This document shows, in pieces, positions 1,517 to 33,328 of a stretch of 64,000 nt of DNA. The stretch lies in contig NW_026861463.1 of assembly GCF_026571515.1 (NCBI RefSeq), positions 434,001-498,000 on the forward strand, written 5' to 3'. Both the position numbers and the translations under genes were made by a program. This stretch comes from Ruditapes philippinarum (lineage: Eukaryota). The notes under the pieces are model-generated. The model searched no databases. It was not told the DNA's origin and worked only from the letters and a program-made list of their open reading frames with translations. Every line of letters begins with the position of its first letter. The stretch's first letter is position 1.

Positions 1517-2564
1517 AGTGATGCGTTAGTTTGTCGGGAATGTTATTCAAAGTCCCATTTATTGAACGGAATGGCACGTTTGCGTTTTTTGGCACCAGTT
1601 ATGGAAATATCTGACGTAATGAAAAAACTATAGAAAATGACGAATTTGAATAGTAAGTATTGGCTATCCCCTACACTTAAGTTAGAAATATTTATTTCAC
1701 TGTCGCTTCGTACTTCTTAATATACTTTAAACGTGATATTATTTTCATTTCTGAAATAGATATAGAAATAGATATGGTCCATATTTGTCCTAAATACATA
1801 CACAATTACCATAACAAATTTCATCTCGACTGTACGGAGAACATTGAGACAATCTAACCTGTGCATGGGCATTTCAGCGGGGGTAACATTTTGTGTCAAG
1901 CAATGTGTATATTGGAGGAATTCAGTCAGACACATGGCATTGGGTCGTCAGAGCTGCAGGTGACTGTCAAAGACCAATAATTCTAGCAATGGTTTTGACC
2001 GAATAATAGTGCTTTGTTAGCATAGACAATAAGTCATTCTAATGTCGAGTACTAGATCAATCTCCACAATTATTGGAAAATATCTGGGAAAATATGTCTT
2101 TAAGATATATAATATAGTAATTAAATACCACAGTTAAAGTTTTATGTTATATTTATAACTCTTCACCTTGTTTAAAATAAATGCAAGGCCAGGTTAAAGC
2201 TTGTTTTCGTGATATATACACAACTACTGGAGGCATTCACTTGTCTATAGGTCACAAGACACACATCTCTTTCGTGGATTTTGAATGAATTATAGGTCTT
2301 GTGAATTTTATGAATAAGAAAATTTATGGTCAAAGATTTGTGTTAGATCTATCTTCACTACTGCAAAGGTATTCATTTGATGCTTTTGATTATAATATAG
2401 CAACGATGTCCAAGACTGAAAATAAAAGCATTTATAACAATTTGTTCTATTTTTGGTAAATTACTACATTTTATGTACCGATGTTTTACTATCAAGCACT
2501 GAGAAGCGCCGAGCACACTGTTCTAGTCATTAAGTATACAATGAACTATTTTACATCTTCAGAT

Positions 2565-5500
2565 ATGGCTGAATCAGACTACAAAACATTACACATGGAA
2601 GACACAAAACACTGTACTCCCTGCAAAACCAAAGATAAGGAGACAAAACCTGAGTTCTACTGCACTGATTGTGAGGCTTACTACTGCGAGGATTGTTTTG
2701 AGCTGCATCTAAGGGTACCTTACCTTGCCAAGCATATTGTCTTGAAACATGATGACATTGACATCTGGTCAAGAGATCAGTATAAGTGTACTTCACATGG
2801 CAAAAACCTTGAATTCTTCTGTAAAGAACATACGATGTTATGTTGTCATGTTTGCATATCGCTAAAGCATAGGTAATATCATTTTAGTAATATGTTTATT
2901 GAAACTTCCAAAAACGTTATTGCGATACACCTAAATATATTTCAAATTTGACCACTCTGGGACGAACCATTTCTTTAAGATTATAAATGCAACAGTTTTC
3001 AGCATATTCTTTAGTAACTGTTGTAGAATAAATATTTACTAATGAACAATTAAACTTATTGAATTACGATGAACGCCTTAACACATTGTTTTCCTTATGT
3101 CATGTAATTATAGAGTTAATATCTTGACCAAAAAACTGACTCATTAAAAGCACATAATTCTTAAAGACTTTCTCGCGATATTATTACATGCCGTAAGAAT
3201 TTCAATTGAATCAAAAGCATTTGTCATTTGTAGCTTTCCTACAAATTTGATTTCTGTCGTTTAAAAGCAGTATATGTAATATTGTTTTCATCTCCTTTTC
3301 TCTTCGGTGATAACCACTCGTATGTTCTTCAGAAAACCTGTGAACAAATGTCGTCTGAACATGACCTTTACAGACAAATGACCTTTATTTTGGGTTGTTT
3401 TCTATTTCATAAATGAAGGGTTGGTAAATGGTTAGCTTTAATTATAGGGTGATCTTTGACTTACATAGTTTTATAACTAGACTCAGCTACAAATGGTATT
3501 GCAGTCTAGTATTTAATCAGGATGATCGATGTTTAATGTTGAGGGGATATTTTACTGCAACACATTCAATTGTTTACTACATCCAGAGTGAATTTTGTCC
3601 ACATGCCAGTCTATCTTTGACACGCCCCTATAAGACAGGGCCATCAGTGACTGATCGGTATTTTAGCCAAATCATGAAGAAAATCGATAACATTGTACTT
3701 AACAACATATAACAAATGGCTTGAACATAGATTTTTATGAAGGCTACAATTACATATCAGTTAGCATTCACTGTATTACAATTTTTGTATCTATCTTTGA
3801 CCCTAAGACATACGTCACTGTCGCAAACATTTCAACATTAGTGTGAGGATGTATTGTAGAATCAAAGGTTTCAGAATAAAAGAAACATATAGAATAAGTC
3901 ATCATCACTGCAAGTATATGCACTTAGTTTATTTTTGAAAACTAAATTTGGCTTTTAAAACCACACTGATATAATGGATGGTCAAAATATCGCCAAATAT
4001 TGCTTATCCGCTTAAGAAGAATCTAAAACAAGAATGAAATATAATCGTTGTAATTCTAATACATTTACCACGAATAATGATTTGTTTTTCAATCCACTTT
4101 CAATGCCAAATTGAAACATACGTTACAGAAACTTGTATGACCAGCATATTTTAAAGAAATTTAATATCCAATGGGAAATTCGGATCTCTTAAGAAAACAT
4201 GCATAACAGCAACTAATCTTTGATTCTCTTTAACATGACAGCAACTAATCTTTAATTCTACTTTAAATAGAAAATTTTGATAACTTCTATCGAGTTTTTA
4301 AGTTATTTAAGTAACCAAAATGAAACAAACGTTACTGTTATATAAGGCTTAATAATGTTCAAACAAGAAATAAATAAAAAAACATATGAAATTGCATTTT
4401 TGTGCATTAGAAAGATGTACATTTAATCCGTATGCAAGAGTCGATGTTACGTATAAGTTTGAATGTATTGGTAGATTCCATAAAATAACATATGTTATTG
4501 CAACTTAAAATTTAACAATACAGAAAATTAACATTCCTGTTAGTAATGGTAACCTTGTTTAAAGATTAAAAAGATACAAAAATGGTCTAGCAAAAGAAAA
4601 GAATATGCAATAAAAGTTGATGTACCACTAGAAATGTTTAAAAAGCTGTTGAAGTTCTAAACTTTTTTCTTTTTCCCAAAACCCTAAATAATTGTATTTT
4701 ATTCTATATAGTTTGATGTTTATTCAGGGAAAAAACGTAGAAGGTTTTATATCTTTTTTACATCTTGGTCTTAAATGGTTTCAAGTTGAAAGTAAAATGA
4801 CTCAACGTTTGGTATGCTTTATCATGAAGCCAACTAATAATTCTCCAATTCCAAAAGTATTACATGTACATGGCTTTGTAACATAAGATAGTTGCAAAAC
4901 TCACATTTTTTCTAGTGTTACTCTCGACTGGTAACCCTTCTGGCAGATTTTTGTAGATTTTTACCACATTATAAGTCATTTATATAACGTTTATGTTAAG
5001 AAAGAAATATATGTCATAAGCGTCATCCAAAATAAGAAAGAAGTCATTCCCGGCAATTAAATAATTTTGTTTTAAAGAACAGAACTGCTGTAGTCATGTA
5101 ACCTAAAATGTGCACTCAACACATACATGTTTTTAAAAGTATACAAAAACGAGGAAAACTTACTCATTTGTCTCTATATTGTATTATTCTTACGCATTTA
5201 ATTGGTTTCTCCAATTTCTTTTTATATATTTATTTCAATTATTTCAAACTCGATTTTAAAGCGATTAAGAATGATATACTCAATTTTAGGTCATGTACCG
5301 ACATGGAATATATCTTAGAATCGGCAATGCAAAATAATTTGGAAGACGACGTAAAAGACATGATGAGACAAATCGAAGAGCAACTCCGTATTATCGAATC
5401 TTGCGCCGATAAAGTAAGGGAAAAAACAGAAAGTAACCAAACGTCAAGGTCCGGGTACATAAAGGAACTAGAATCATTTCGCAGTAGAATAAACGAAATG

Positions 5501-5896
5501 TTTGATTCGCTTATAGAGAAATCATTTGAAGAGGTGAAGGAGAAGTTCGATCAAAATGACTATTATTCCGATAACGTAAGACAAACATTAACTCGATTTG
5601 AAGGCAAACTAAAAGAGTTTGAGCAACTACTCAAATCAACTGCTGTTGGGAAAGAACCTCTTGTTTATATAAGTCTAAAAAGGGCTGAAATTCTTGTTGC
5701 AGAATTTTCAAGGGAGTTATCAAAACTCGATTTTTCATCCGATAAAGAAAAATATAAACCAGTCATTGATGATACAATTGAAGGCTACGTGAAAAATATA
5801 AAACAAATAGCGGTCATAGAAGATGAAAGAATGATACAAGAACGTGTTGCAAGTGAAAGCCTTTCAGAAAAAGATGACACATGTTCATCCGAAGAG
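2565..5896 (+). CDS. B-box zinc-finger / coiled-coil protein (TRIM-like, no RING); first two coding exons, 3' end uncertain
   Basis: Exons 2565-2872 and 5290-5896 join in frame (AG|gtaat ... ttttag|G), giving 305 aa. Two B-boxes (CxxC..FYCTDC..YCEDC..H..H and CTSHGKNLEFFCKEH..CCHVC..HRSC) are followed by heptad-rich coiled coil. A phase-0 donor follows 5896. Confidence 0.85.
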
Positions 5897-6910
5897 GTAA
5901 ATAATCTTTAACCAAGTAGGGTAAACACTTTTGTTTAAAATAATTCCAAAACAATAATGATTTATGAGTGTTTATCTTTGTATCTCCTTCTTTGCTTGAA
6001 TTAAAAGTGTTTTAATTACCTTTACCATAAATATAGAGCCAGTCTAATATGAACATTCAAGCAAAGTTAACCCTAAAGTTGTTATTTATAGGAAACGAAG
6101 TTTTTCCATTCAGTTTAGTGTGAGAAATCATATTTAAGTACCTTTATGTAAAAATATATATCGTTGATTGATTCTTCATTAGAACCACCCTACAAAAGTA
6201 AATTTTAATTTACAATGAAGCTTTTTGTGTATTATAGAACTCTTAAATTTGAAAAATAAGATGCATATAAATTTATTGAAGCGAAAGTTAGTCGAACGAT
6301 GTAAACGTATGGCTTCTATAATTATTTGTGAAAACCTCATACTTAGCAAAGCAAAGTGATATATAGTAAGAATCAGTTTTTCTGTTTGTCCTTTCTTGTC
6401 TGAAGCCATGTAGGCGGTAATTTTCATCAATTTAATAATATATGGTATGAATAGTTGCTTGTACCAAAAATTTTTTTAAAGGATTTGATCAGTCCTCAAC
6501 ATTTATTGAAATTATTTAAAAAATATACTTAACATCAATTCAGAAGACGAGTGTTGCAAGCAAGGTCTGTCGCTCACAAATCTTAATCAGGCAGATCAAA
6601 ATTAAATACACATGCTAGTTGTTGCTGGTAAATTCCTCATTTACGCAATGGTTTTGCCACTAGCAGCTGTGCTAATATATTATACTAAGTGGATAATTTC
6701 TTAATGTAGTAAAGTATTATAAAGCAATTTTGTTAATGTAGTAAAGTATTAAAGAAATTTTGATTGTATAGTATCGGCATTTTGCTTCAAGAACACAAAG
6801 GAGGAGATGGAAGGTCAGAAAAATATATTTCCTGGGGACTAATTTTAGAGATCTGTTGAGGTCATTTTTTGTAAACTAAACAATATGGCAAAGGTAAAAA
6901 TAGATTTTTT

Positions 6911-12170: not shown

Positions 12171-13620
12171 ACAAAGCCTCGCACAAAATAAAACAATAAA
12201 TCGTTACTCGAATGATAGATCACAATTTTAATAAATATTATTGTTATTGAAGAACTATTAGTTTATAGCCTGCTTCATTCAATCTACAAATAATAATAGT
12301 TATTGTTTCTCAATAGAAACAGTTCTATTTTAAACTATTCAGAAATTCGGCATTTTACAAATAAAATATATATTTGATATGTTTCATGTTCTTTGAATTA
12401 ATGTGCACGGTTTTTGTGGTTTTAGATATTTCTTATTGATAAATATAATCAGTATTTTGTTGTTGTTGATGTGTTATTTTATTTTATTTTAGTTTCGTTT
12501 TTTTACACTTATACAGATACATGTTATGTAGCTGCATAGTATTTAATGTTGTTCTTTTGTTGGGTTTGTTTCTTAAATTTTATTTTGATCGGTTGTTGTT
12601 TACTTTTTTCTTTCTGTATGGTGCCAGCGTATCTGTTATCCAGACTTAATTTTATGTCTGTGATAACATCGTCATCAAATAGAAAACATTAAGGAGCACT
12701 CCACACTAAAGTTCAAGTTCCTGCCGTCAATAAATCTGATATTTCTGACCCCAAAATACACAAACTGGAAAAAGAAAACACATTTTGTTGAGCACATATA
12801 TGTTATAACATTGCAAAAATATAATGAAATTTAACCCATCTACATTAGTGTTCTGTGGTTCGCTCTAGCAAAAAATTCCTGCAGATATTGGTGCTACAGC
12901 AACACTGTTTACGCTTAAGCAAAATATTACAAAGAAACAGGTGGTTCGCCTTCCGACTATTTTGCTATTATTAAATGTTTGTACCCCCCCCCCCCCCCGA
13001 CAAATGTATTGATTTTACCGAGCATGCATCACAAAACATTGTTTACAAAACCATGGTGTCCTTGACATTTAAAATCAACTTAATGTAATTTCTGGCCATG
13101 TATTCGAATTTGTATTAGAGGTCCCAAAAACAAATTGGACTTTATAGAGTGTCACAACCAATCATTTAAATCCACAATAGTCACACATATCCAATAAATT
13201 CTCCAAGGCCAATCGAAGATGTGGCTATATTTGGTGTGGTGTGCTACCTTAATTTCACTTTCTGTAAGGTCGAATGGCAATTGATAAGATAATGTATCAC
13301 ATTGGTGGAAATGTGACATGCACGCATTACATATGCATTACTTTGCATTACAAACGAAAATATTCAAGTCTACTCTAAGTTATATTTCAGTTTACATTTC
13401 ACCCATAATACAGTAATTTTGGGATGAATTAAAGCGTTAAGTACCAAAAAAGTGAAAATGATATTTATGACAGATATATAAAATTAGCGGGACTAATCTA
13501 ATATTCGACGACCAAATTTCCTCTGTTCAATGTATCATTAGATGAATTTTTTATCAGTAATTTAAATTGAAACAGCAGGGTGTTAAAGATAAAATTTTAT
13601 TATCCATGTATTACATAATA

Positions 13621-15773
13621 TTATAACATGACCCACGGTGCAGGAGTGTTGTAAACCCATTCATTATTTTACGTATTAAATGGGTCAGTAATACACTAGT
13701 GTAATAAATATGCTAATGAGCCGAATCACTATCACTACGCGCTGTCAAAAAACATAAACAAATATGGCGTCGAATGTCATTTCTGTCAACGATCAGGTTC
13801 GAATCGACGGTCACGGCCTTGGAATCGTCACTGAGATAGTTTACCGCGGGTTCACCACGAGCTACATGGTCAGGCTAGTTGACAGTAACTTTGAAGTTGA
13901 ACTTGAAAGGGAGAGATTGACGATTGTGCCTACCGACGAGATGAACGCTATGTCCGAACGGCCAAGGTCCAGATTTAATATTGTCTCTGACTCTGATGTT
14001 GACGCCTTTAACCACGAGCAAAGTAATAAAAACACTCTCATAAAAACTGTTAATGATTTAAAAATTCTGAAATCTTTCAAAAATTTCACGATTTTCGTTT
14101 ATCTCAGGTTCTTCAAAGAAATTCTTTGAAGAACCTGAGATAAACGAAAATCGTGAAATTTTTGAAATTCCAGAAAATGAATTGTCCTCATTACTTTGCC
14201 GGTTTTTAGTCAGTGTCAGAAAGCAAAATGGAGACGAGTATGAGCCTTCAGTCCTGCGTGGAATGATATCTAGTTTTGATCGGCAGTTACGTCGAAAAGG
14301 TTATGAACAAACCATTGCTTTGGGCCCTGGATTTGCTAAAGTTCGAGAGACACTGTCTATGAAACAACGACAGCTTAAAAAAGATGGGAGGGGTAACTTG
14401 CCAAAAAAAAGTGAACCGCTGTCTGACAAAGATATAGACCATTTATGGAACTCAGACCAACTTGGCACAAGAACACCGGACACTATACTTCAAACACTTT
14501 GGCTGTACAATACCATACATTTTGGACTTAGAAGTTGTCAAGAACACCGTGATATGTGCTGGGGAGATATTTCATTAATGGCCGATGATAACGGACATGA
14601 ATACTTGCAATTTTCGGAGAGACAAACCAAGACACGGTCCGGTGAAAATCCGAGAGATGTGAGGGTAATAAAACCTAAGATGTGGGCAAATGTTGTAAAT
14701 CATGATCGATGCCCGATTGCCGTTTACAAATTGTACGCTGAAAAACGTCCAATGAATTATTCTGAATTTGACCATCCATTTTATATTGCAACTACAACTA
14801 TCCACTTACCTTCACCCCGTGACACCTGGTTTAAACGAAATCCAGTAGGAATCAACAAACTAGGATCAATGATGAAGAGAATGGTCCAGCATTCTGGTTT
14901 AAATTCAAGTAAACGCCTTACTAATCACAGTGCACGAAAATACCTTGTTCAAAAATTGAACGACAGTAACATTCCTCCTAACCAAATTATGCAAATATCC
15001 GGTCATAAGAATATAGCATCCATCAACAATTATAGTCACATAAATCAGAATCAGCACAGACAAATATCCGACATCCTTCATTCCAATGTAAAAGAAAACA
15101 ATCCAGCGAATCCCATTCCATATCCGTGTTCAAATTCTGCACAGTTAAACCATAACACAGCACATGTCAACACCGATTCAAGGTCCAATCTTCATGTATC
15201 CGGTGGGTTTCAGAGTATTTTCAGCGCTCCCATACATGGTGGAACATTTCATGTGCATGTTCATCAAAATGACTCCAAATTAAATCAAAATTCAGGCCAC
15301 AAACGTGCACGATACATAGACAGCGATAGTGATTAAATTCGAGTTCATATGCAAGATGCCGGCTATCAAACTTTACACACATGAACATTGACGTCATGAG
15401 TAAGATGGTGACAATGTGATATTTTTACAAATGAATGATATTAAGTCTTGTTATTGCTATAAAAACATGTTATGAATTTGACGAAATAAATGTGATATTA
15501 TATGTCAGTAAGCACAATAGTTTTTCCTAAAAAAAACTGTTTTAACTAGTACTACTTTTTTTAGCGCATGAGGGTCAGAAACCGTATAACAACTTCGACC
15601 CATTTCTCCTTATATAGAAAAAAGGCACAGCAATTTATTTTCTTCGTTTATCAGGGCGCTTTTTCTGGTCATGTCATAAATAGAATCTTAATTTCGTGTT
15701 TATGTTGTATTAAATTTATTAAACTCGTCATCTGAAAACGATAAAAACGAGGCTCTTCAAGATCCTCTATTTA
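13621..15773 (+). mobile_element. Crypton-type tyrosine-recombinase transposon
   Basis: Contains a DUF3504/YR coding region. The left end TTATAACATGACC (13621-13633) is inverted at GGTCATGTCATAA (15667-15679), followed by a terminal hairpin taaatagaatctt...aagatcctctattta (15677-15773). Boundaries are inferred. Confidence 0.7.
13764..15336 (+). pseudogene. DUF3504 (ZMYM/KCTD1-related) tyrosine recombinase, frameshifted by a 46-bp insertion
   Basis: ORFs 13764-14129 and 14182-15336 fuse into one 508-aa ORF if 14076-14121 is removed. Motifs: VRKQNGDEYEP, FGLR, TKT, NHSAR, SGHK, NNYS (catalytic R-K-H-R-H-Y set intact). No introns. Confidence 0.85.
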
Positions 15774-16603
15774 CACGATTGGTATTACTTTGAAAGTGAA
15801 TGACAAGGCGGTAAGTGTCAAACAAGGCGAAGCTCTTTTGCCCTACGCAGATTGCGCATGCGCGAAAAATACTACTTAATGTTTCAAAAAAGCAATGTTT
15901 GTAATATGGAGTAAAGTTAAGTACTGTTAACATACGTGATTATTCTGTTGAATCCCAAAATGTTGTTTAAGTGCAATAATCAGTTTTGGATTTAAATAAC
16001 CTATATGGTCTTCATAAGAATAAGAATACTGTATGCTTTTTTCTACGTCCTATAGCCCCTGAATTAGTAGATTAATAAGTAATACTGTATGAAATTATAA
16101 ATAGTTATTATAAATCAAATGCCCGTATTGTTTTCGGCATTCTCATATTTTTATCGATTTTTTTTGTTTAACATATTCTCTATTGTCAGGTTCCACACTA
16201 CATATGTTTTGCATATACACGCAAGTTTGTTGCACACTACATAATAGTTCCAAGCACGTTTACAATTCACGCATATTTAACCAGAGCATTGACACCAGTT
16301 TGGACCAAGTAATATAATTCTGTTTTATATTATTCGTGAAAATTATTTCATTTATACCTTGATTTAAGTTTATAAGTAAACGGGTTTTGTTTTGAACACA
16401 TCGTCCTTAAGAAAGATGATGTTGCTATTAACAAGATCATAAAAGTGTTAAACACTTTCGTTGAATCAACAATACGCGTTAAATTGTATGTGTTAAATAT
16501 ATGTAAGTTTATGTATATAGGCCGTTCCATTGAAACAACCCAGGCTATATACCGTGGATAATTATATTGAGCGTTGAGTAAACCGGGCACAGTTGTGTCG
16601 GTG

Positions 16604-16684: not shown

Positions 16685-19600
16685 ATGGACGATGTCATTG
16701 TTTTTACCGTGTTGCTGGCTTTATTTGCTCAAGGTATAGATTACAATAAATAAATAAATACATAAATGAAAAAAACCTGTTTCAAGTTTAATGATAATTT
16801 TTTATTGAGAAACAAGAGAAGATTTAATTTTAAAGCTCGTTAATTTTTTAGAGTAACAATGTTAACAAGATAATTACAGGATTTTGATATCAAATCAATA
16901 AATGACAGTTTAATTATAAAATCAAATTTGGTGTCAGCGTTGGGGCACACACACAAAAGATATCATTAAAATTGATGTTTGATTTTTTTAAAAACAAAAC
17001 AGTTGTTTTGTTTGTTGTTGTTCTTCTTGTTGTTTTGTTGTGGGTGTTTTTTTTATTTCGTTTTCTTTTTTTTTCTTTTTTTTTTCTTCTTCTTTTTTAT
17101 ACCGACATTTTTGACATTATGAAAGGATATAACGGTGTTTCATTTTTTATGATGTGTGCAATTGTTTCTACCGTAAGTACTTTTAAAGAATCTCTTTCTA
17201 TATCGATAAGCTCTTTTATTGCACCATTTTCTAAACTGGTTATTTTGTCATTTTCCCACCATCATTTCTACGATTCATTATCTCTGTTATATAACGTGTG
17301 TCTGGTCACACTAATATTTCCCATATCTCATTTTTAGATTGAATCATTATCCATCATTCCAACGACAGTATTTTTTTTTTCAATGAATTCTTCCATAGCA
17401 TGATTTTAAATTTTTCAAATACTTTAAGTATTCATCTTTATGATAGGGGTAAAAGGATCACATTTAGTTCTGTCTACTTCAACCGATAAGCTAATATATA
17501 CTTTTTCTGAATCAATTAGGCTTCAAATGCAAATATTTTTATATCTCAAAAGATTTTTATTCGGGACGCTATTACAGATTAGTATAATTACTTATTGCCT
17601 ATATGTACGAAAGACCGATGGGGACATTTCATCTTCATGAATTCCCGATTTCATCTTCAGAGTTATCACAAGTACTCCAGAACATTTGAAAAATCGGGTA
17701 TAAATCTGTTAGCCGGTGCTTTTTGTTTGCAATTTTGCATTAAAATTAATAGGTAATTATGTATGGCAAGGATAAAGACCAGAAATAAACAGGTCAATAC
17801 ATGTGAATTGGCAAATAATTTGAAAATTTTACTCAAAACTACCAGATTTTAAGCAAGAGGCGATAAAAATTGCCTATGAATTTGCTTTGTCACAAAATAC
17901 AAGATGTAAGACAAGCTTAATTATTTAAGTTTAATTGAGCACCTAAAACTCATTTTTAAAAGATGAAAATAGCCATTTTTGACGAGTGTTTTTGTAATGT
18001 ATACTGATGTTTAACGACGAACTACGTGACAGTTATCACAAGAACCCCTGAACAAGTTATCATAAGAACTCCATCCTTCGTGTAACACTTCCTCCGCCGT
18101 GTATTTTATCTTTATCAATTCACGATTTTAACTTCACGAATTCACGATTTCAACTTCAACTTTATGAAGATGAAATCGTGAATTCGTGAATTCCCGAAGT
18201 TGAACTCGTGAATTCAAAAGTTGAAACCGTGAATTCATGAAGATGAAATCGAGAATTCATGAAGTTGTAATGGCCTACCGGTCTTTCGTACATATATCTT
18301 AATCATCATTCGCTTCTTAAGCATTTTGGCAAGTAGTGACCTTATAAATATTTAGTATTTTTATAGAAGTCACTTTATCACTATGGGTACATTTTGCTTA
18401 CATGTTTTACTCAAAGCACAGAAGGCGCTGAATTTGTTTGGGTCTCAGAATGTCAGAAAGGTGAAGGTTGTGAGATTATAAAACAATTTGTTTTTGTATA
18501 GTGCCACCAATGCTTTCAAGCGTTTTAATTGTAGTAGAATGGCTAAAAGATTAATTGCAACACTGCTATTAGATCCAATGTTTATTCTACTTAAACAATT
18601 TGAAAAAAAATGAGTTGCCTTAACTGGGATTTGAACTCATACCTCTCCCTTCCTAAGCGAGCGCTGAAACCCTTCGGCCACGATGAATTTCTTTGTTAAT
18701 GTCCTGAAGAAAACCATATTATTCTATTTAGGGTTTGTAACGCTAACTGTTGTTTAACACTTGTGTAAATAATCATGGCGCTTATTATAAGCATGTATAT
18801 ATCTATAAAGAATAAAACAATATTAGAAATATTCGACCATTCGGGAATTATTTTGCTTGAAAATTAATCCGCCTGTCATGTTACCATATTTACGAAGTGA
18901 TCTCCCCTGAACTTTTCGGCCTAAGTGTTACATATAAAGGGAAGTAACCGCTTCAAAAAAGCGGACTACTTTCGGCACTTACAATTAACAGCATTAGAGT
19001 CTGAAATTTCGCTACCATTATTTGTTTGGTCTGACGACCCAAACAAATAAAAACCCATTATTACTAAACTATTAAACAAATGTTAGCCATTGCTACGAAA
19101 AATAAAACGTTACTTTACATTTCTGAGGTTTTAAACTAACTTGACATTTTTTTCTATTTTACAATATGGTGTTTCTAAGAGAACGTTACAAAACACCTTC
19201 TTCGATATCAAATGTTTTCAATTTCTTATACCGTCATTTCTATCCCAGCGTAAAATTTCTTTAAAAAAGTTTACAATAAAAAATTTTAATGTCTTCTTCA
19301 TTGCTTAATCGTAGTTTGATACGTGCGTCTTCAATACTGATATATATTTATATCAACCCCACAGTAAAAGGTGTTCCTCTTACACGAGACAACTGCGACT
19401 CCTTACAGATCCTCGTTTTAGCGGACTGGGGCGGCTCACCACATGCACCGTACACAACTTCAATGCAAATTGATGTGGCCAATCAAATGGCTACGACGGC
19501 GGGTGAAAGGAATATCAGTTTTGTCCTTTCTCTTGGCGACAACTTTTACGATACTGGGATTTACAGTTGGAAAAGCGACAGATTTGAGGTGAGGTAGAAC

Positions 19601-25587: not shown

Positions 25588-25862
25588 GAAGAATTAGACA
25601 ATTATTTCCTAACAATAAATAAAGAAAAGATTTAGATGTAGAAATAATAAGTATCTCAACAAAATTGATTTTTGTAAATTCTAATGTCCTTATAAATGAA
25701 TGTCTTTAATTGCATGCCAACTCTACACAAAGATAACAAAAGTAACAAAAAACGCTAGATAACGAAATACATGTACAATCGCTCTTCCGATTTCTTCATA
25801 CCTTATCTCTTACATATAACTTACACTGCTTTACATGGTTTCTAAAATAATAGGCGGGGGAA

Positions 25863-27991
25863 ATGTCTACGTTTTTCTATTGTTATGTGAGTTTTTCCTT
25901 ACTTGCCGCTGTTCACACTTTTGTTGTTTCGGTCGGAGTTCCAATTATACAGACAAAGTATGGAGAAATTCATGGACAGTTAGTGACAGTAAACTACGAA
26001 GGTAAAAATGTCGAAATTAGGAAGTTTTTAGGAATTCCTTATGCAAAAGCACCGGTTGGTGATCGACGATTTCGGAAACCGGAAATGATGAACGCACTTC
26101 CTGTGACGCCTTTTATGGCAACTAATTTTGGACCTATTTGCCCTCAGCCAAACGTTGCTATGTTTGGTCTGACCACATCGGAAGATTGTCTTTTTCTAAA
26201 TATATACGCGCCAATGATGTCATCGTCGACCGTGTTAAAACCTGTAATGGTATATATTCATGGCGGCGGGTTCGATCTAGGATTTTCAGACATTTATGAC
26301 GGTAGTATCATCGGCGCCTATGCTGATGTTATAGTGGTTGCGATGAATTACCGCATTGGTCCTTTAGGATTTCTGTCAACCAAAGATGCCGAAGCTCCGG
26401 GAAATTTCGGATTGTGGGACCAGCGTTTAGCTATAGAATGGGTTTCTGAGAATATTGCTGCATTTGGCGGCGACAGGTCTAAAATCACAATATTCGGGGA
26501 ATCAGCTGGTGGTAGTAGTGTGATTTATCAAACTGTTTACCCTGGAAACGATGGCTTGTTTCAGCGCGCCATTGCACAGAGTGGTACAATTGCTGCGTGG
26601 GGTGTTAACCGTTTTGATTCAAATTACAAGGTGTCCACGGCCTTTGCGAAATATGCGGGTTGTAATTACGTGAGCTCCTCTCTTCTGCTCCAATGCCTAC
26701 GAAACAAATCATCAGATCATATGAAAACTGTCACAGAAAGTTTCCAGTCTTTTTTGCCTGTGAATTTGGTTAACAACACATGGGTCCCTGTTTTTGACGG
26801 AGTCTTTGTGGTTACAAAACAAGACCATCTTCTGAACGAAATGGCTGATCCTTTAGTAAATTCAAAATTCCCATCTTTCAAAAATGTAGATTTGATGATA
26901 GGTGCGAATAAATTGGATGGAAATGTTTTTATCACAAATTTTCTGGAGTATATCAACGAGTCTTCATATGGTCCATTGACTGATTACTTTAATGTGACGT
27001 CAGAGCAGTTTGAACATATCATTATGCCTATAGCAGCTGCAGTATCTCTCGGAGAAATTCCGAATAAAGCTGTGCTAGAAGCTATTAGATTTGAATACAC
27101 CGCTTGGGATGACCGTAACAATCTAACTCGGCGTTTACAAAATTTGATAAATATAGCAACCGACTTAAGTCTGAATGCACCATCTGTGTCAACAGCAAGA
27201 GCGCATGCAAATGGAAACACTTCAACGTTTATGTATCAATTTTCAACCGCATATGTGATGGAATTTCTTCCAATACCTCCGATGCTTAAGGACGAAGAAA
27301 GTGCCGGACATGCGGACGAGCTTGGTTTCGTATTTGGATTTCCAGCTGCCTTATTGCTGCCGTTTGGGGCGAATCCCGCAAATGTTACTGCAGAACAACA
27401 TAAGGTGTCCAAGGCAACAATGGCGATGTGGAGTAACTTTGCGAAAACGGGGTAAGCGCTTAATTTTGATTTTCAACAGAACTACATTGTATGTCTTACA
27501 ATGATTGTAAAAGAACATGCTGTGTCTTTTGTGCATATTTAAAAGGAAATCATTTTTTAGGTTACCGTAAAAATGCACTTAAATCATTTAAATATCAATT
27601 ATTGTGCGGATTTCATTGTTAATTTCTGTGGTACCCAGTCAGCGTTACGTACATCATACATGTATAAATGATGAAAATATATATACATATATTCACAGTT
27701 TCATGAAAAAATTGTTAGCCTGCTATTGAAAAAGGATTCCCAATTTTTATATTTACATCGACTTATTTCTATAATAACGAACACTTTTCTTTCAGAAATC
27801 CAAACAAACCGATCAATTTGGAAGCTATATATAGTAATCTACACTGGCCTCAGTTCACAACAATGGCGGAACAATATCTCGAAATCACACCAAACATGGG
27901 GTCACACTCGGCAAAGACTAGACTTGCCGCTAAGGCTGCTCAATTCTGGAATGATTTAGTACCATCTCTCCAAACACTTGGATCACATTAA
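25863..27991 (+). CDS. Secreted type-B carboxylesterase / bile-salt-activated lipase-like, 594 aa
   Basis: join(25863-27451,27796-27991). Signal peptide, FLGIPYA, EDCLFLNIY, HGGG oxyanion hole, GESAG nucleophile, GANKLDG acid, GHADEL His, WSNFAKTG|NPN across the junction. Confidence 0.93.
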
Positions 27992-28190
27992 ATCTTATAT
28001 TCATAATTAATATTTATTTTCTGACATTTGCTATAGTGAAACAATCTACATTATTTTCTATGAAAGACTGGTAAGGGCATTTTAACTTCATGAATTCCTG
28101 ATTTCATCTTCAATGAATTTCCAATTTTAACTGTGTGAATTCACGACTTCAACATACGGAAGTCCCTTATTAACTTCAAGAATTCAACAA

Positions 28191-30576: not shown

Positions 30577-33328
30577 ATGGGAGTCTGTTCTTCTGTTAGT
30601 GAGAGCAAAAAGATATTGATGCTTGGCTTAGATGATGCAGGTGATTATTTTTAAGTTTTGTTAAATAAAAATAATTAATATAAAAGGCTAACTTTCCATT
30701 TGAGTAAAATCACTGTTGTACAGCGTTCACGGGAAATAGCCCCTCAAAACATCGAAAACGAAAGTAAAAAGGTGTACGAGGTAATGTTTCAACTTATTTC
30801 TCCATCATNNNNNNNNNNNNNNNNNNNNNNNNNNNNNNNNNNNNNNNNNNNNNNNNNNNNNNNNNNNNNNNNNNNNNNNNNNNNNNNNNNNNNNNNNNNN
30901 NNNNNNNNNNNNNNNNNNNNNNNNNNNNNNNNNNNNNNNNNNNNNNNNNNNNNNNNNNNNNNNNNNNNNNNNNNNNNNNNNNNNNNNNNNNNNNNNNNNN
31001 NNNNNNNNNNNNNNNNNNNNNNNNNNNNNNNNNNNNNNNNNNNNNNNNNNNNNNNNNNNNNNNNNNNNNNNNNNNNNNNNNNNNNNNNNNNNNNNNNNNN
31101 NNNNNNNNNNNNNNNNNNNNNNNNNNNNNNNNNNNNNNNNNNNNNNNTGCTATTTATTCCATTTTCTAGGGAAAACCACACTTCTGTACAAAATCCGGCT
31201 TGGGGAGATTTTAACAACAGTTCCAACGATTGGATTTAATGTAGAGACTGTAAAAGTAGCGGGTGACGTCAGTTTTGTTGTATGGGATATTGGCGGTCAG
31301 AAAAATTTAAGATCGTTGTGGCACCATTATATAAGCGGAGCGGATGGTAAATTTCTTACTTTTTTTCTTCTCTCTTGCTTGTTGCGAATCGAGTTGATAA
31401 TTTAGGTTTTATTATTTTCTACATATCCAAGTGAGAATGGTTAATGTTAAGTTGTATTTTTAAGTTTTATATTTTATTCTAGTTCATTTATTTCATCCTA
31501 AACATGTATCGTTATCAGTAACTGGTCAGTCACCATTATAATAGTTAAATTTTTAAATATATAACAAATACAGTTCAACTTCACAGCAATTTATTTTAAC
31601 TAATAGCATTCTATGTTTGACAATTGTAATTCTATGGGTGGCCTAGTATCCTAGTTACAATGATATCCAACTCTCCATCCCTGGTTCGTGGATTCAAGCC
31701 GTACTTAGGCAACCACAATAACGCCATTGATTGGAACATTCTCGGCTTTTATCTATATCCTTATCGAAGACTGACGGAAAGGGCTGAAAAGGGGCGATTG
31801 TAACGCCTTAAACAGCTATAGGACATATTTACTGGACATAGGAAATGTTACAGATGTAAGGAGATAAAAAAAGTTTGCTATTAAAACAGTTTGAATACAT
31901 AAGAGGATGTGATAATGTATTGTTGATCATAAGTATGTTTTAGTTTTAGTAAAGTTCTCCATCACACAGGCGAATTAGATATGGGTGTTTTATATTAACA
32001 AAAGATAAAACAAAACGTTGGCTAGTTTTGGGACATGGCTGAGGCTGACCCAGGATGCGCTCCTTCCCAAAGCTCCTAGAAGTAAATTTTTAAAAATGTG
32101 TATAGTAAATGTCAGGAAACCGTACTTAAAGACACCCCTCACACTCTCCTTCGAACCCCAACTGAGATTACACCACCGTCCCCCACCCCCCCCCCCCCTA
32201 CTAATCATCATCAAAGTTTATTTGTGTTCGTCGGTATGGTTGTGTGCTTGTGCAAATCATTCCATTTAGGTCTTTATGAATGACCATGATTACTTTACAG
32301 GATCACGCATTAGAAGTCATTATGAAATTCTGTTTTGTTCTGTCGTATTTTTTTGTGGTTTCACTGATCTACCATATCATGTTGATGTTATTGTTGTTGT
32401 TTTAGGGTTGTTGTATGTTGTTGACAGCACAAATGTGGAGAGACTGTCAGAAGCTCGAGAAGTGTTGTTTAATACCTTAAACAATGAAAACATGAAAGGT
32501 GTCCCTGTTGTAATTATTGCAAACAAGCAAGATTTACCAGGTAAGTTCACTTCTTGCTCATTGCATTTTCATTGTTGGCTTCTCCAAATTTTCGTTCCGT
32601 ATTTAAAATTATTGCGAGGTTTTTCCAAGTGCATGTGTTACATGTTTCTCCTCCATATGTTTAGTATCATAGTAAATCGAGGTTAATATATATAGTAAGA
32701 TTATTAATATTTAATTAATTTCTATATACACTGTATTGGAGCATCCGTGCCCCAGTGGTTAAGGTCGTTAACCTCAAACCACTTGAATCAAGCCGCGCAA
32801 ATGTCTTCGGATTCTTCTCAAGTGAAAAATTACTGAACGTCAGTGGTTCTACTCAGGTACCCTTTCGTGCCTGGGGCCAGTAAAGCTGGAAAGCCGCCAT
32901 ATAACCTAAACTGTGTGGGTATGACGTAAAACTCAACCAAATAAATTAATAAACTATTAATCTTATCAGCTTATTGAGAAATATATATTTTCTTCACTCA
33001 AAGAAATTAGTATCCTTTTGGTTTAGAGTAATAATATAGATGACATTTTCACTTGGATGCTATAACTTAATCTTTCTTCTCCAATGCTTAATTCGTTTAA
33101 GAAGTGAGTAAATCCGTTAGTTACAATATCGCTTAATTGATTTTAACTTAATATTCCATTTGCTATTTAGGTGCTTTAAAACCAAGTGAAATCTCCGAAC
33201 GAATGGGTTTAAACGATCTCGGACACTGTCATTCCTGGCATGTACAAGGTGCTAGCGCTGTTACTTCGGAAGGAGTTTTTGAGGGCGTTGAGATGATGGC
33301 GACATTGATTAAAAACTTAAGGAAATAA
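30577..33328 (+). CDS. ARF-family GTPase (divergent paralog A), 177 aa
   Basis: join(30577-30640,31170-31346,32406-32540,33171-33328). [30 protein letters not shown]. Intron 1 contains an N gap. Confidence 0.9.
32738..32945 (+). mobile_element. tRNA-derived SINE
   Basis: A-box-like gtgccccagtggtt head; core gtggttctactcaggt..agtaaagctggaaag shared with the copy at ~61845-62030; A-rich tail. Confidence 0.6.

What the first reader, a model, noticed from the sequence alone, without database searches (positions are those of the whole stretch)
14075..14167. Perfect 46-bp inverted duplication is the only visible lesion in an otherwise intact Crypton recombinase
Seen: 14075-14120 is the exact reverse complement of 14122-14167, with a 1-nt spacer. 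Removing 14076-14121 restores ...LKILKSFFEEPEINENREIFEIPENELSSLLCRFL... and a 508-aa ORF with all catalytic residues. Short TTC repeats flank the insert, and weak pre-existing symmetry (ttctg/cagaa) lies outside it. Inference: a recent replication template switch. Such a palindrome could revert by slippage, would form a dsRNA hairpin able to seed siRNAs against the family, and adds a cryptic acceptor (ttttcgtttatctcAG, 14107). It could therefore act as an off-switch or silencing allele.
Basis: partly seen in the sequence, partly recalled or inferred. Interest (0 to 1): 0.7.

Follow-up and report, generated by a model that had tools for sequence, protein, structure and literature searches.

The report
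Template-switch scar in dead Crypton copy
One copy of a young jumping-gene family carries a perfect 46-base mirror insert that its sister copies lack; it likely came from an ordinary DNA-copying slip and, with two further scars in the same copy, likely just broke that copy rather than creating a switch.

Summary
The perfect 46/46 inverted repeat is present at the stated coordinates. It lies in a 2.15-kb DUF3504 (CryptonA) element and is private to this copy: 0 of 13 other contigs spanning the site carry it, the junction occurs once in the assembly, and contigs of 6 of 6 DNA-like runs skip it. It is not an intron. It is not the only lesion: this copy also lacks 9 bp at 13957 and has lost most of the family's 3' hairpin through a second inversion-plus-deletion. 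The geometry fits a known short-range template switch (four-point type 1-3-4-2), primed at a pre-existing imperfect inverted repeat. Two more perfect palindromes turned up in 800 kb sampled from the assembly, one of them a private event of the same kind. The off-switch reading is weak: exact reversion has only a 3-bp repeat across the hairpin tip, rescue splicing has only a weak donor, and molluscs reportedly lack an endo-siRNA pathway. No raw reads were available, so an assembly artefact stays open (about 15%). The scan has noted such template-switch hairpins before in other genomes.

The parts
13621..15773 (+). CryptonA-type DNA transposon copy (about 2.15 kb) bounded by a TTA direct repeat (13621-23 and 15771-73), inserted into a copy of a high-copy repeat whose empty site has one TTA
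   Evidence: Family matches start near 13621 and end near 15748-15770; empty-site relatives L032-L035; 54 matches in G000
13764..14075 (+). Native 5' piece of the recombinase ORF (104 codons from ATG); it now runs into the insert and stops at 14127 after 121 aa
   Evidence: no Pfam family at cut-off
13957..13958 (+). Second lesion: private 9-bp in-frame deletion behind 13957 (3 codons)
   Evidence: The 9 bp are present in 8 of 8 other aligned copies and in all 6 DNA-like runs plus the RNA run laid
14065..14075 (+). Left half of the pre-existing imperfect inverted repeat (TTCTGAAATCT, followed in the family by TTC); likely priming site of the first switch
   Evidence: Compared with the reverse complement of 14164-14175; self-match 14065-14175; priming role inferred
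14076..14121 (-). 46-bp insert: inverted copy of the adjacent coding arm. It includes A14080 mirroring this copy's private T14162, and a cryptic AG at 14106-07
   Evidence: junction found once in G000; uninterrupted site found at 9 places
14122..14167 (+). Native arm that served as template; T14162 is private (A in the other copies and in all 6 DNA-like runs)
14122..15336 (+). Native 3' piece of the tyrosine-recombinase ORF (404 aa): QRICH1-like region, DUF3504 and phage-integrase catalytic half, with R (14530), K (14629), HxxR (14926-14937), H (15004) and Y (15031)
   Evidence: Pfam PF12012 E=2e-29, PF00589 E=5e-10, PF25561 E=8e-6 (below cut-off); PDB QRICH1 9hjt E=2e-11; motif positions
15676..15770 (.). 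Third lesion: remnant of the family's 3' terminal hairpin. The left arm is kept, the loop is replaced by an inverted 7-8 nt piece (15749-15756), and a net 62 bp of the right arm is lost
   Evidence: DNA fold -8.6 kcal/mol here (101 nt) vs -46.6 to -53.5 in L002, L004, L005 (165-166 nt); junction unique

Best explanation
A private 46-bp inverted duplication interrupts one copy of a young multi-copy CryptonA transposon; it likely arose in vivo by a single short-range inter-strand template switch and is likely just a neutral inactivating lesion in a copy that carries two further scars. Shown: the uninterrupted family sequence has an imperfect inverted repeat (TTCTGAAATCTTTC versus the complement of GAAATTCCAGAA, exact over the inner TTTC/GAAA) around a spacer of about 40 nt; the insert equals the reverse complement of the adjacent arm plus one base; it shifts the frame, giving a stop at 14127. 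Inferred: the nascent + strand stalled near 14074-14075, annealed through TTTC/GAAA to the opposite strand at 14164-14167, copied 46-47 nt backwards, and returned to its own template at 14122. That is order 1-3-4-2 in the four-point model, with the single A14121 as the inverted spacer. A similar switch at the family's 3' hairpin likely inverted the loop and removed the right arm. The copy is therefore probably non-autonomous and may also be impaired in cis. The hairpin's likely fate is decay or loss of both arms, not regulated reversion.
For: Private: 0 of 13 other contigs spanning the site have it (a 14th has a deletion over the site); 1 interrupted vs 9 uninterrupted pattern matches in G000; 6 of 6 DNA-like runs from 4 samples skip 14076-14121. 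The template is local: the insert carries the complement of this copy's own private T14162, not the family A. Recent: 5 private substitutions in about 2,110 bp and arms still 100% matched. Priming homology at the junction. Type 1-3-4-2 is described and made up 23% of human-chimp events (PMC5453318 passages); great-ape insert lengths have median 12, max 128, and 65% lengthen the sequence (PMC7954356 passages). The process is common here: 2 more perfect palindromes (arms 35 and 33, spacer 0-1) in 800 kb, of which L090 is private against 6 family relatives; about 2.5 per Mb, 95% interval 0.3-9. The family's 3' hairpin shows arm-perfecting conversion in another copy too (L005).
Against: No read-level confirmation: none of the contigs shown carries the insert or any of this copy's private alleles (piece table cut, 446 rows not shown), which contigs cannot be expected to show. 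The 46-47-nt fragment is in the long tail of described events. The return switch has no clear homology beyond TTC. Two inversion-type lesions in one young copy are more than the sampled background would predict, and 2 of the 5 private substitutions (14060, 14162) sit at the event (post-hoc P=0.008). That could mean error-prone repair synthesis rather than plain replication, or local consensus trouble; three of the five substitutions lengthen a homopolymer run.
Confidence: 0.72

Rival explanations
1. The insert, and perhaps the 3' hairpin lesion, is a sequencing, amplification or consensus artefact at a multi-copy repeat and does not exist in the animal.
For: No run laid shows it (6 DNA-like runs). 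The best runs hold only 0.84 of the words of 13700-15400. The assembly has noisy, indel-rich copies of this family (L007 19 and L008 18 indel events). Both large lesions involve hairpins.
Against: Logan contigs collapse this family of about 10 copies into one path and drop rare variants. Flank contigs of X4 and X8 differ from the window (13500-13509 in X4; 15931 and 15975 in both), so those animals may not carry this haplotype. Both arms carry the copy-specific allele instead of the family-majority allele, and this copy has no 1-bp indels. Fold-back read artefacts usually invert the rest of a read rather than return after 46 nt (my own knowledge; one paper search for it gave nothing relevant).
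Confidence: 0.15
2. The insert is real but was made by break repair: a hairpin-sealed end at 14074/14075 was opened about 47 nt from its tip and rejoined, or error-prone end-joining made a templated insertion, possibly around the time the copy integrated.
For: A palindrome centred exactly on the breakpoint with a 1-nt tip is the expected product of hairpin opening (established for P-nucleotides; recalled). Clustered private substitutions and a second complex lesion point to error-prone synthesis.
Against: Hairpin opening normally leaves only a few palindromic bases (recalled). The distal junction falls exactly on the pre-existing TTTC/GAAA quasi-palindrome, which this route does not need. The site is inside the ORF, not at an element end. 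A self-primed snap-back is sterically excluded by the 1-nt centre.
Confidence: 0.08
3. The insert works as a regulatory allele: a reversible off-switch for the recombinase, or a hairpin RNA source that silences the family in trans (Mu killer-like).
For: The RNA would fold into a very stable stem (-73 kcal/mol, z=-16.4) whose 5' arm is antisense to the family mRNA. Family-like contigs occur in one RNA run (X17; not shown to be transcripts). Template switches have made real miRNAs in primates (PMC10710096 abstract and Discussion). Short hairpins are proposed as the workable silencing route in molluscs (PMC12479628 passages).
Against: Single copy, seen in no other sample. Exact reversion has only TTC across the tip; the best repeats give an inverted-arm product (7 bp) or loss of both arms (6 bp; 95 or 103 nt). 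The 3' hairpin is also lost. The 3-nt loop differs from the preferred stem of about 35 bp with a loop of 10 nt or more for pri-miRNA (PMC10710096). Endo-siRNA machinery is reported lost in Trochozoa. Mu killer makes a hairpin of about 4 kb (PMC3440606, search listing). RNA contigs carry family alleles, not this copy's.
Confidence: 0.05

Closest known systems
[quoted passage not shown]
   Same: Reverse-complement copy of adjacent sequence, perfect new inverted repeat, inverted spacer (1 nt here), start at a pre-existing imperfect inverted repeat, net length gain.
   Different: The fragment of 46-47 nt is well above the great-ape median of 12 (max 128). It is seen in a likely mollusc transposon copy, inferred from paralogues rather than from orthologous alleles, and is not read-validated.
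CryptonA (DUF3504) tyrosine-recombinase DNA transposons (PMC3212892; PMC13465315)
   Same: Single intronless ORF with DUF3504 and an intact R-H-R-Y tetrad, related to QRICH1/ZMYM; no terminal inverted repeats pairing the two ends; short direct repeat at the ends.
   Different: The direct repeat is 3 bp (TTA) rather than 4-6 bp. The family has a hairpin of about 160 nt at its 3' end, whereas PMC3212892 found no terminal repeats in animal Cryptons. This copy is broken.
Mu killer and Ac killer (maize) inverted-duplication silencing alleles (PMC3440606; 10.1101/2020.01.07.897926; search listings only)
   Same: Inverted duplication of transposase-coding sequence that could give a hairpin RNA matching the family.
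   Different: Those are kilobase hairpins in a plant with siRNA and RNA-directed DNA methylation. This is 46 bp, in a lineage reported to lack endo-siRNAs, with no expression or silencing shown.
Template-switch-born miRNA hairpins (PMC10710096)
   Same: A perfect stem made in one event inside potentially transcribed DNA.
   Different: 3-nt loop and 46-bp stem instead of about 35 bp with a loop of 10 nt or more; no small-RNA evidence. In primates 18 well-supported miRNAs came from more than 6,000 suitable hairpins.

Membership tests
Short-range template-switch mutation (four-point model) | Ancestral state lacks the inverted segment | tested here: met
   0 of 13 other contigs spanning the site; 6 of 6 DNA-like runs skip it. 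Ancestry is inferred from paralogues.
Short-range template-switch mutation (four-point model) | New sequence is fully explained by a reverse-complement copy of nearby sequence with two switch points | tested here: met
   45 of 46 insert bases match the adjacent arm in reverse; the remaining A complements the base before the arm in the family sequence; order 1-3-4-2.
Short-range template-switch mutation (four-point model) | Event exists in the organism's DNA (not an assembly error) | not testable with these tools
   Only Logan contigs were served, no raw reads.
CryptonA transposon | DUF3504 tyrosine recombinase | tested here: met
   PF12012 E=2e-29 and PF00589 E=5e-10; QRICH1 structure hit E=2e-11.
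CryptonA transposon | R-H-R-Y catalytic tetrad retained | tested here: met
   HFGLR, NHSAR, SGHK and NNY motifs. Tetrad definition from PMC13465315 passages; motif placement recalled, not aligned to a solved recombinase.
CryptonA transposon | Dispersed multi-copy element with sharp ends, no TIRs joining the two ends, short direct repeat | tested here: met
   Near-identical copies with unrelated flanks; TTA at both ends vs one TTA at the empty site; shorter than the 4-6 bp in PMC3212892.
CryptonA transposon | Phylogenetic placement among named Crypton clades | not tested
   No tree built; placement rests on the Pfam and PDB hits.
Spliceosomal intron shared by the family | Present in all copies and bounded by GT...AG | tested here: not met
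   Absent from all other copies; the skipped piece reads TT..AA.
Mu killer-type silencing allele | Long hairpin transcript | tested here: not met
   Stem is 46 bp vs about 4 kb for Mu killer (listing); transcription of this copy not shown.
Mu killer-type silencing allele | Small RNAs from the stem and trans-silencing of the family | not testable with these tools
   No small-RNA reads served; the pathway is reported absent in molluscs.

The most novel reading that the evidence does not exclude
A one-step template switch turned a Crypton copy into a short-hairpin source whose antisense arm is diced by the miRNA machinery and represses the whole family: a miniature Mu killer in an animal lineage without endo-siRNAs. 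A second, less bold reading (about 10%): two inversion-type scars in one young copy mean that Crypton transposition or recombinase cutting at the 3' hairpin itself provokes template switching.
Probability: 0.04. Interest if true: 0.65.

Novelty: new member of a known kind. Interest (0 to 1): 0.14.

Why it matters
As it stands it matters little. It is a clean, fairly long invertebrate example of a known mutation type, dated by its paralogues, in an assembly that probably holds hundreds to thousands of such palindromes (0.3-9 per Mb). If small RNAs from the stem were found, it would show that a single copying error can create a transposon-silencing allele through the miRNA route, which would be of real interest. 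The by-product most worth following is the family's long 3' terminal hairpin, a candidate cis-element for the poorly understood transposition of animal Cryptons.

Tried and rejected
They show the family majority path and cannot show absence, so I did not count them as proof of artefact. Whether any of these animals carries the insertion at this locus could not be read: no listed joint links an element end to this flank, and the piece table was cut. The RNA run X17 has no contig over 13987-14556, which is uninformative. Shared intron: rejected (absent from other copies, no GT..AG). Foreign mini-element or MITE: rejected, since the insert is the gene's own codons reversed. Intra-strand snap-back: rejected on geometry (1-nt centre; the native TTC-TTT-GAA mini-hairpin would give a different product; reasoning from sequence). 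A family-wide tendency to templated inverted insertions: not seen; the 5 other insertions of 4 nt or more in the other 7 copies examined (L006 left out as poorly aligned) are tiny duplications or foreign inserts. Splice rescue: only donors scoring about 0-1 bits on a recalled weight matrix give long open frames. Background scan: AT-microsatellite hits were dropped; the 80 stretches came from 12 large contigs and are not a random sample. Paper searches for Crypton hairpins in bivalves and for matching library artefacts gave nothing relevant; Repbase entries and paper supplements were not seen and may already describe this family and its 3' hairpin. Own-scan look-up near this place: nothing.

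Full report
Observation. The arms 14075-14120 and 14122-14167 are exact reverse complements with one A between them. Chance is excluded: among 863 kb scanned it is the longest perfect inverted repeat outside AT microsatellites, and shuffles of 40 of the 81 sequences gave none with arms of 14 or more. The upstream piece from ATG 13764 runs through the insert into a stop at 14127 after 121 aa. The two native pieces are each open and sum to 508 aa.

The element. The 3' piece hits DUF3504 (E=2e-29), phage integrase (E=5e-10) and, below cut-off, QRICH1, and also the solved QRICH1 chain (E=2e-11). R, K, HxxR, H and Y motifs are present (layout recalled; tetrad as defined in PMC13465315, passages). 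This is the CryptonA group of PMC3212892 (passages). The element spans about 13621-15773, has TTA at both ends, and sits in a high-copy repeat whose empty site has one TTA. G000 (1.41 Gb) gives 54 matches; full-length copies differ from the column majority by 0.4-2% in most cases, so the family is young. The host is likely a mollusc: RNA runs labelled 'mollusc metagenome' hold part of the stretch. This is an inference.

The insert is private. Of 14 other contigs aligned at the site, 13 span it and 0 have the insert; the last has a deletion over the site (L004 and L007 share a flank and are probably one locus). The junction pattern occurs once, the uninterrupted site at 9 places. Contigs of 6 DNA-like runs from 4 samples all skip 14076-14121, with ends TT..AA, so it is no shared intron. 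This copy has a private A-to-T change at 14162 and the insert carries its complement at 14080, so the template was this very copy.

It is not the only lesion. The copy lacks 9 bp behind 13957 that 8 of 8 aligned copies and all seven runs laid have. The family ends in a hairpin of about 160 nt (DNA fold -46.6 to -53.5 kcal/mol in three copies). Here the loop is replaced by 7-8 inverted bases and a net 62 bp of the right arm is gone (-8.6 kcal/mol over 101 nt); that junction is also unique. None of the 9 aligned copies has an unbroken ORF in the assembly. L002 is broken only by a frameshift at a homopolymer run and keeps its hairpin, so this copy is not the family's closest-to-intact member.

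Mechanism. In the family sequence the strand ending ...TTCTGAAATCTTTC faces, about 40 nt downstream, a segment whose reverse complement is ...TTCTGGAATTTC: an imperfect inverted repeat with an exact TTTC/GAAA core. I infer that the nascent + strand jumped from about 14074 to the opposite strand at 14167, copied back 47 nt to the base it had left, and resumed at 14122. [quoted passage not shown] The length is in the tail of the great-ape distribution (median 12, max 128; PMC7954356, passages). The 3' lesion reads as a second switch at the native hairpin, and copy L005 shows arm-perfecting conversion at the same loop. Two of five private substitutions (14060, 14162) lie at the event (post-hoc P=0.008). 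This hints at error-prone synthesis, but both also lengthen homopolymer runs.

How ordinary is it? In 80 stretches of 10 kb from 12 large contigs (not random), 2 further perfect non-microsatellite palindromes with arms of 30 or more and spacer 0-1 were found, plus 2 with arms of 18-19. L090 is a private inverted copy replacing family sequence, absent from 6 of 6 relatives; L103 is a perfected family quasi-palindrome. The rate is about 2.5 per Mb (95% interval 0.3-9), which means hundreds to thousands in the assembly.

Real or artefact? This is unresolved. Only contigs were served; they collapse the family and show none of this copy's private alleles. Flank contigs in X4 and X8 differ from the window, while one X11 contig matches 15839-16050 without a difference. 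For a real event: the copy-specific allele in both arms, priming homology at the junction, no 1-bp indel noise in this copy, and the same class of event elsewhere. For an artefact: no independent sighting, noisy sister copies, two hairpin-linked lesions. I put an artefact at about 15%.

The functional claims. Reversion: the only repeat giving exact removal is TTC (3 bp) across the hairpin tip. A 7-bp repeat (14118/14164) would remove the native arm and leave the inverted one; 6-bp repeats at the stem base would remove both arms (95 or 103 nt). That hairpin bypass favours loss of the whole palindrome is recalled knowledge; one paper search added nothing that I read. Splicing: the AG at 14107 exists, but a long open frame needs the weak donor at 14023 (495 aa), which also pairs in frame with native AGs at 14131 and 14173, and the site would be buried in the stem. 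Silencing: the RNA stem is very stable (-73 kcal/mol, z=-16.4) and its 5' arm is antisense to family mRNA. But endo-siRNA proteins are reported lost in Trochozoa (PMC11114477, abstract) and no dedicated siRNA pathway was found in molluscs (PMC12479628, passages). The miRNA route remains: template switches made at least 18 human miRNAs out of more than 6,000 hairpins (PMC10710096, abstract, start of introduction and Discussion), but the preferred substrate has a stem of about 35 bp and a loop of 10 nt or more. Mu killer uses a hairpin of about 4 kb (PMC3440606, search listing). The one RNA run laid carries family alleles only and does not cover the site.

Verdict. A probably real, one-off template-switch lesion in one broken copy of a young CryptonA family: a new member of a known kind, interest 0.14. 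Earlier scan notes on other genomes reached the same kind of reading; my reading was stated before I saw them and I did not test their claims. Supplements and Repbase were not seen.

Noticed in passing
L002, L003, L004, L005, L007, L008, L009, L010, L014 3' ends (equivalent to window 15676-15773): The family ends in a hairpin of about 160 nt whose base is the element end, with CTC-opposite-CTC bubbles mid-arm and at the loop. Similar sequence recurs at the ends of diverged relatives (L024, L025, L030). It is a candidate recombinase or replication cis-element; not found described in searches, Repbase not seen.
   Followed up: partly
L005, 3' hairpin loop: The loop-proximal TCGG reads GAGG, perfecting the stem: a small quasi-palindrome correction at the same hairpin.
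   Followed up: partly
L090:1587-1656 (G000:C9228): A private perfect 35-bp-arm palindrome with no spacer that replaces family sequence in a different repeat; same class of event.
   Followed up: yes
L103:6760-6826 (G000:C1372): A perfect 33-bp-arm palindrome made by perfecting and shortening a repeat family's native hairpin.
   Followed up: partly
window 13384-13620 and about 15774-15880: The Crypton sits inside a high-copy repeat (1,315 first-look candidates, about 85% identity), splitting it at a TTA.
   Followed up: partly
L004 and L007 (G000:C7117, C8006); L024 and L025 (C11503, C1372): Pairs of contigs with matching copies (same flanks in L004/L007), probably uncollapsed haplotypes; L007 is indel-rich, suggesting poor polishing.
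   Followed up: no
window 18103-18271: A short 22-bp-unit satellite in two opposed blocks, giving 19-bp perfect arms at 18133-18190; the same unit recurs at 28079-28153.
   Followed up: no
window 2460-2876 and 5102-5911 (+); 25854-27455 (+); about 31150-32550 (+): Open frames that look like a B-box/coiled-coil (TRIM-like) gene, a carboxylesterase and ARF-like GTPase exons, by eye from the translations; not scanned. Whether the Crypton lies in an intron was not determined.
   Followed up: no
L005 (behind window 15458) and L008 (behind window 15447): Foreign inserts of 86 and 152 bp in the 3' non-coding part of two sister copies.
   Followed up: no
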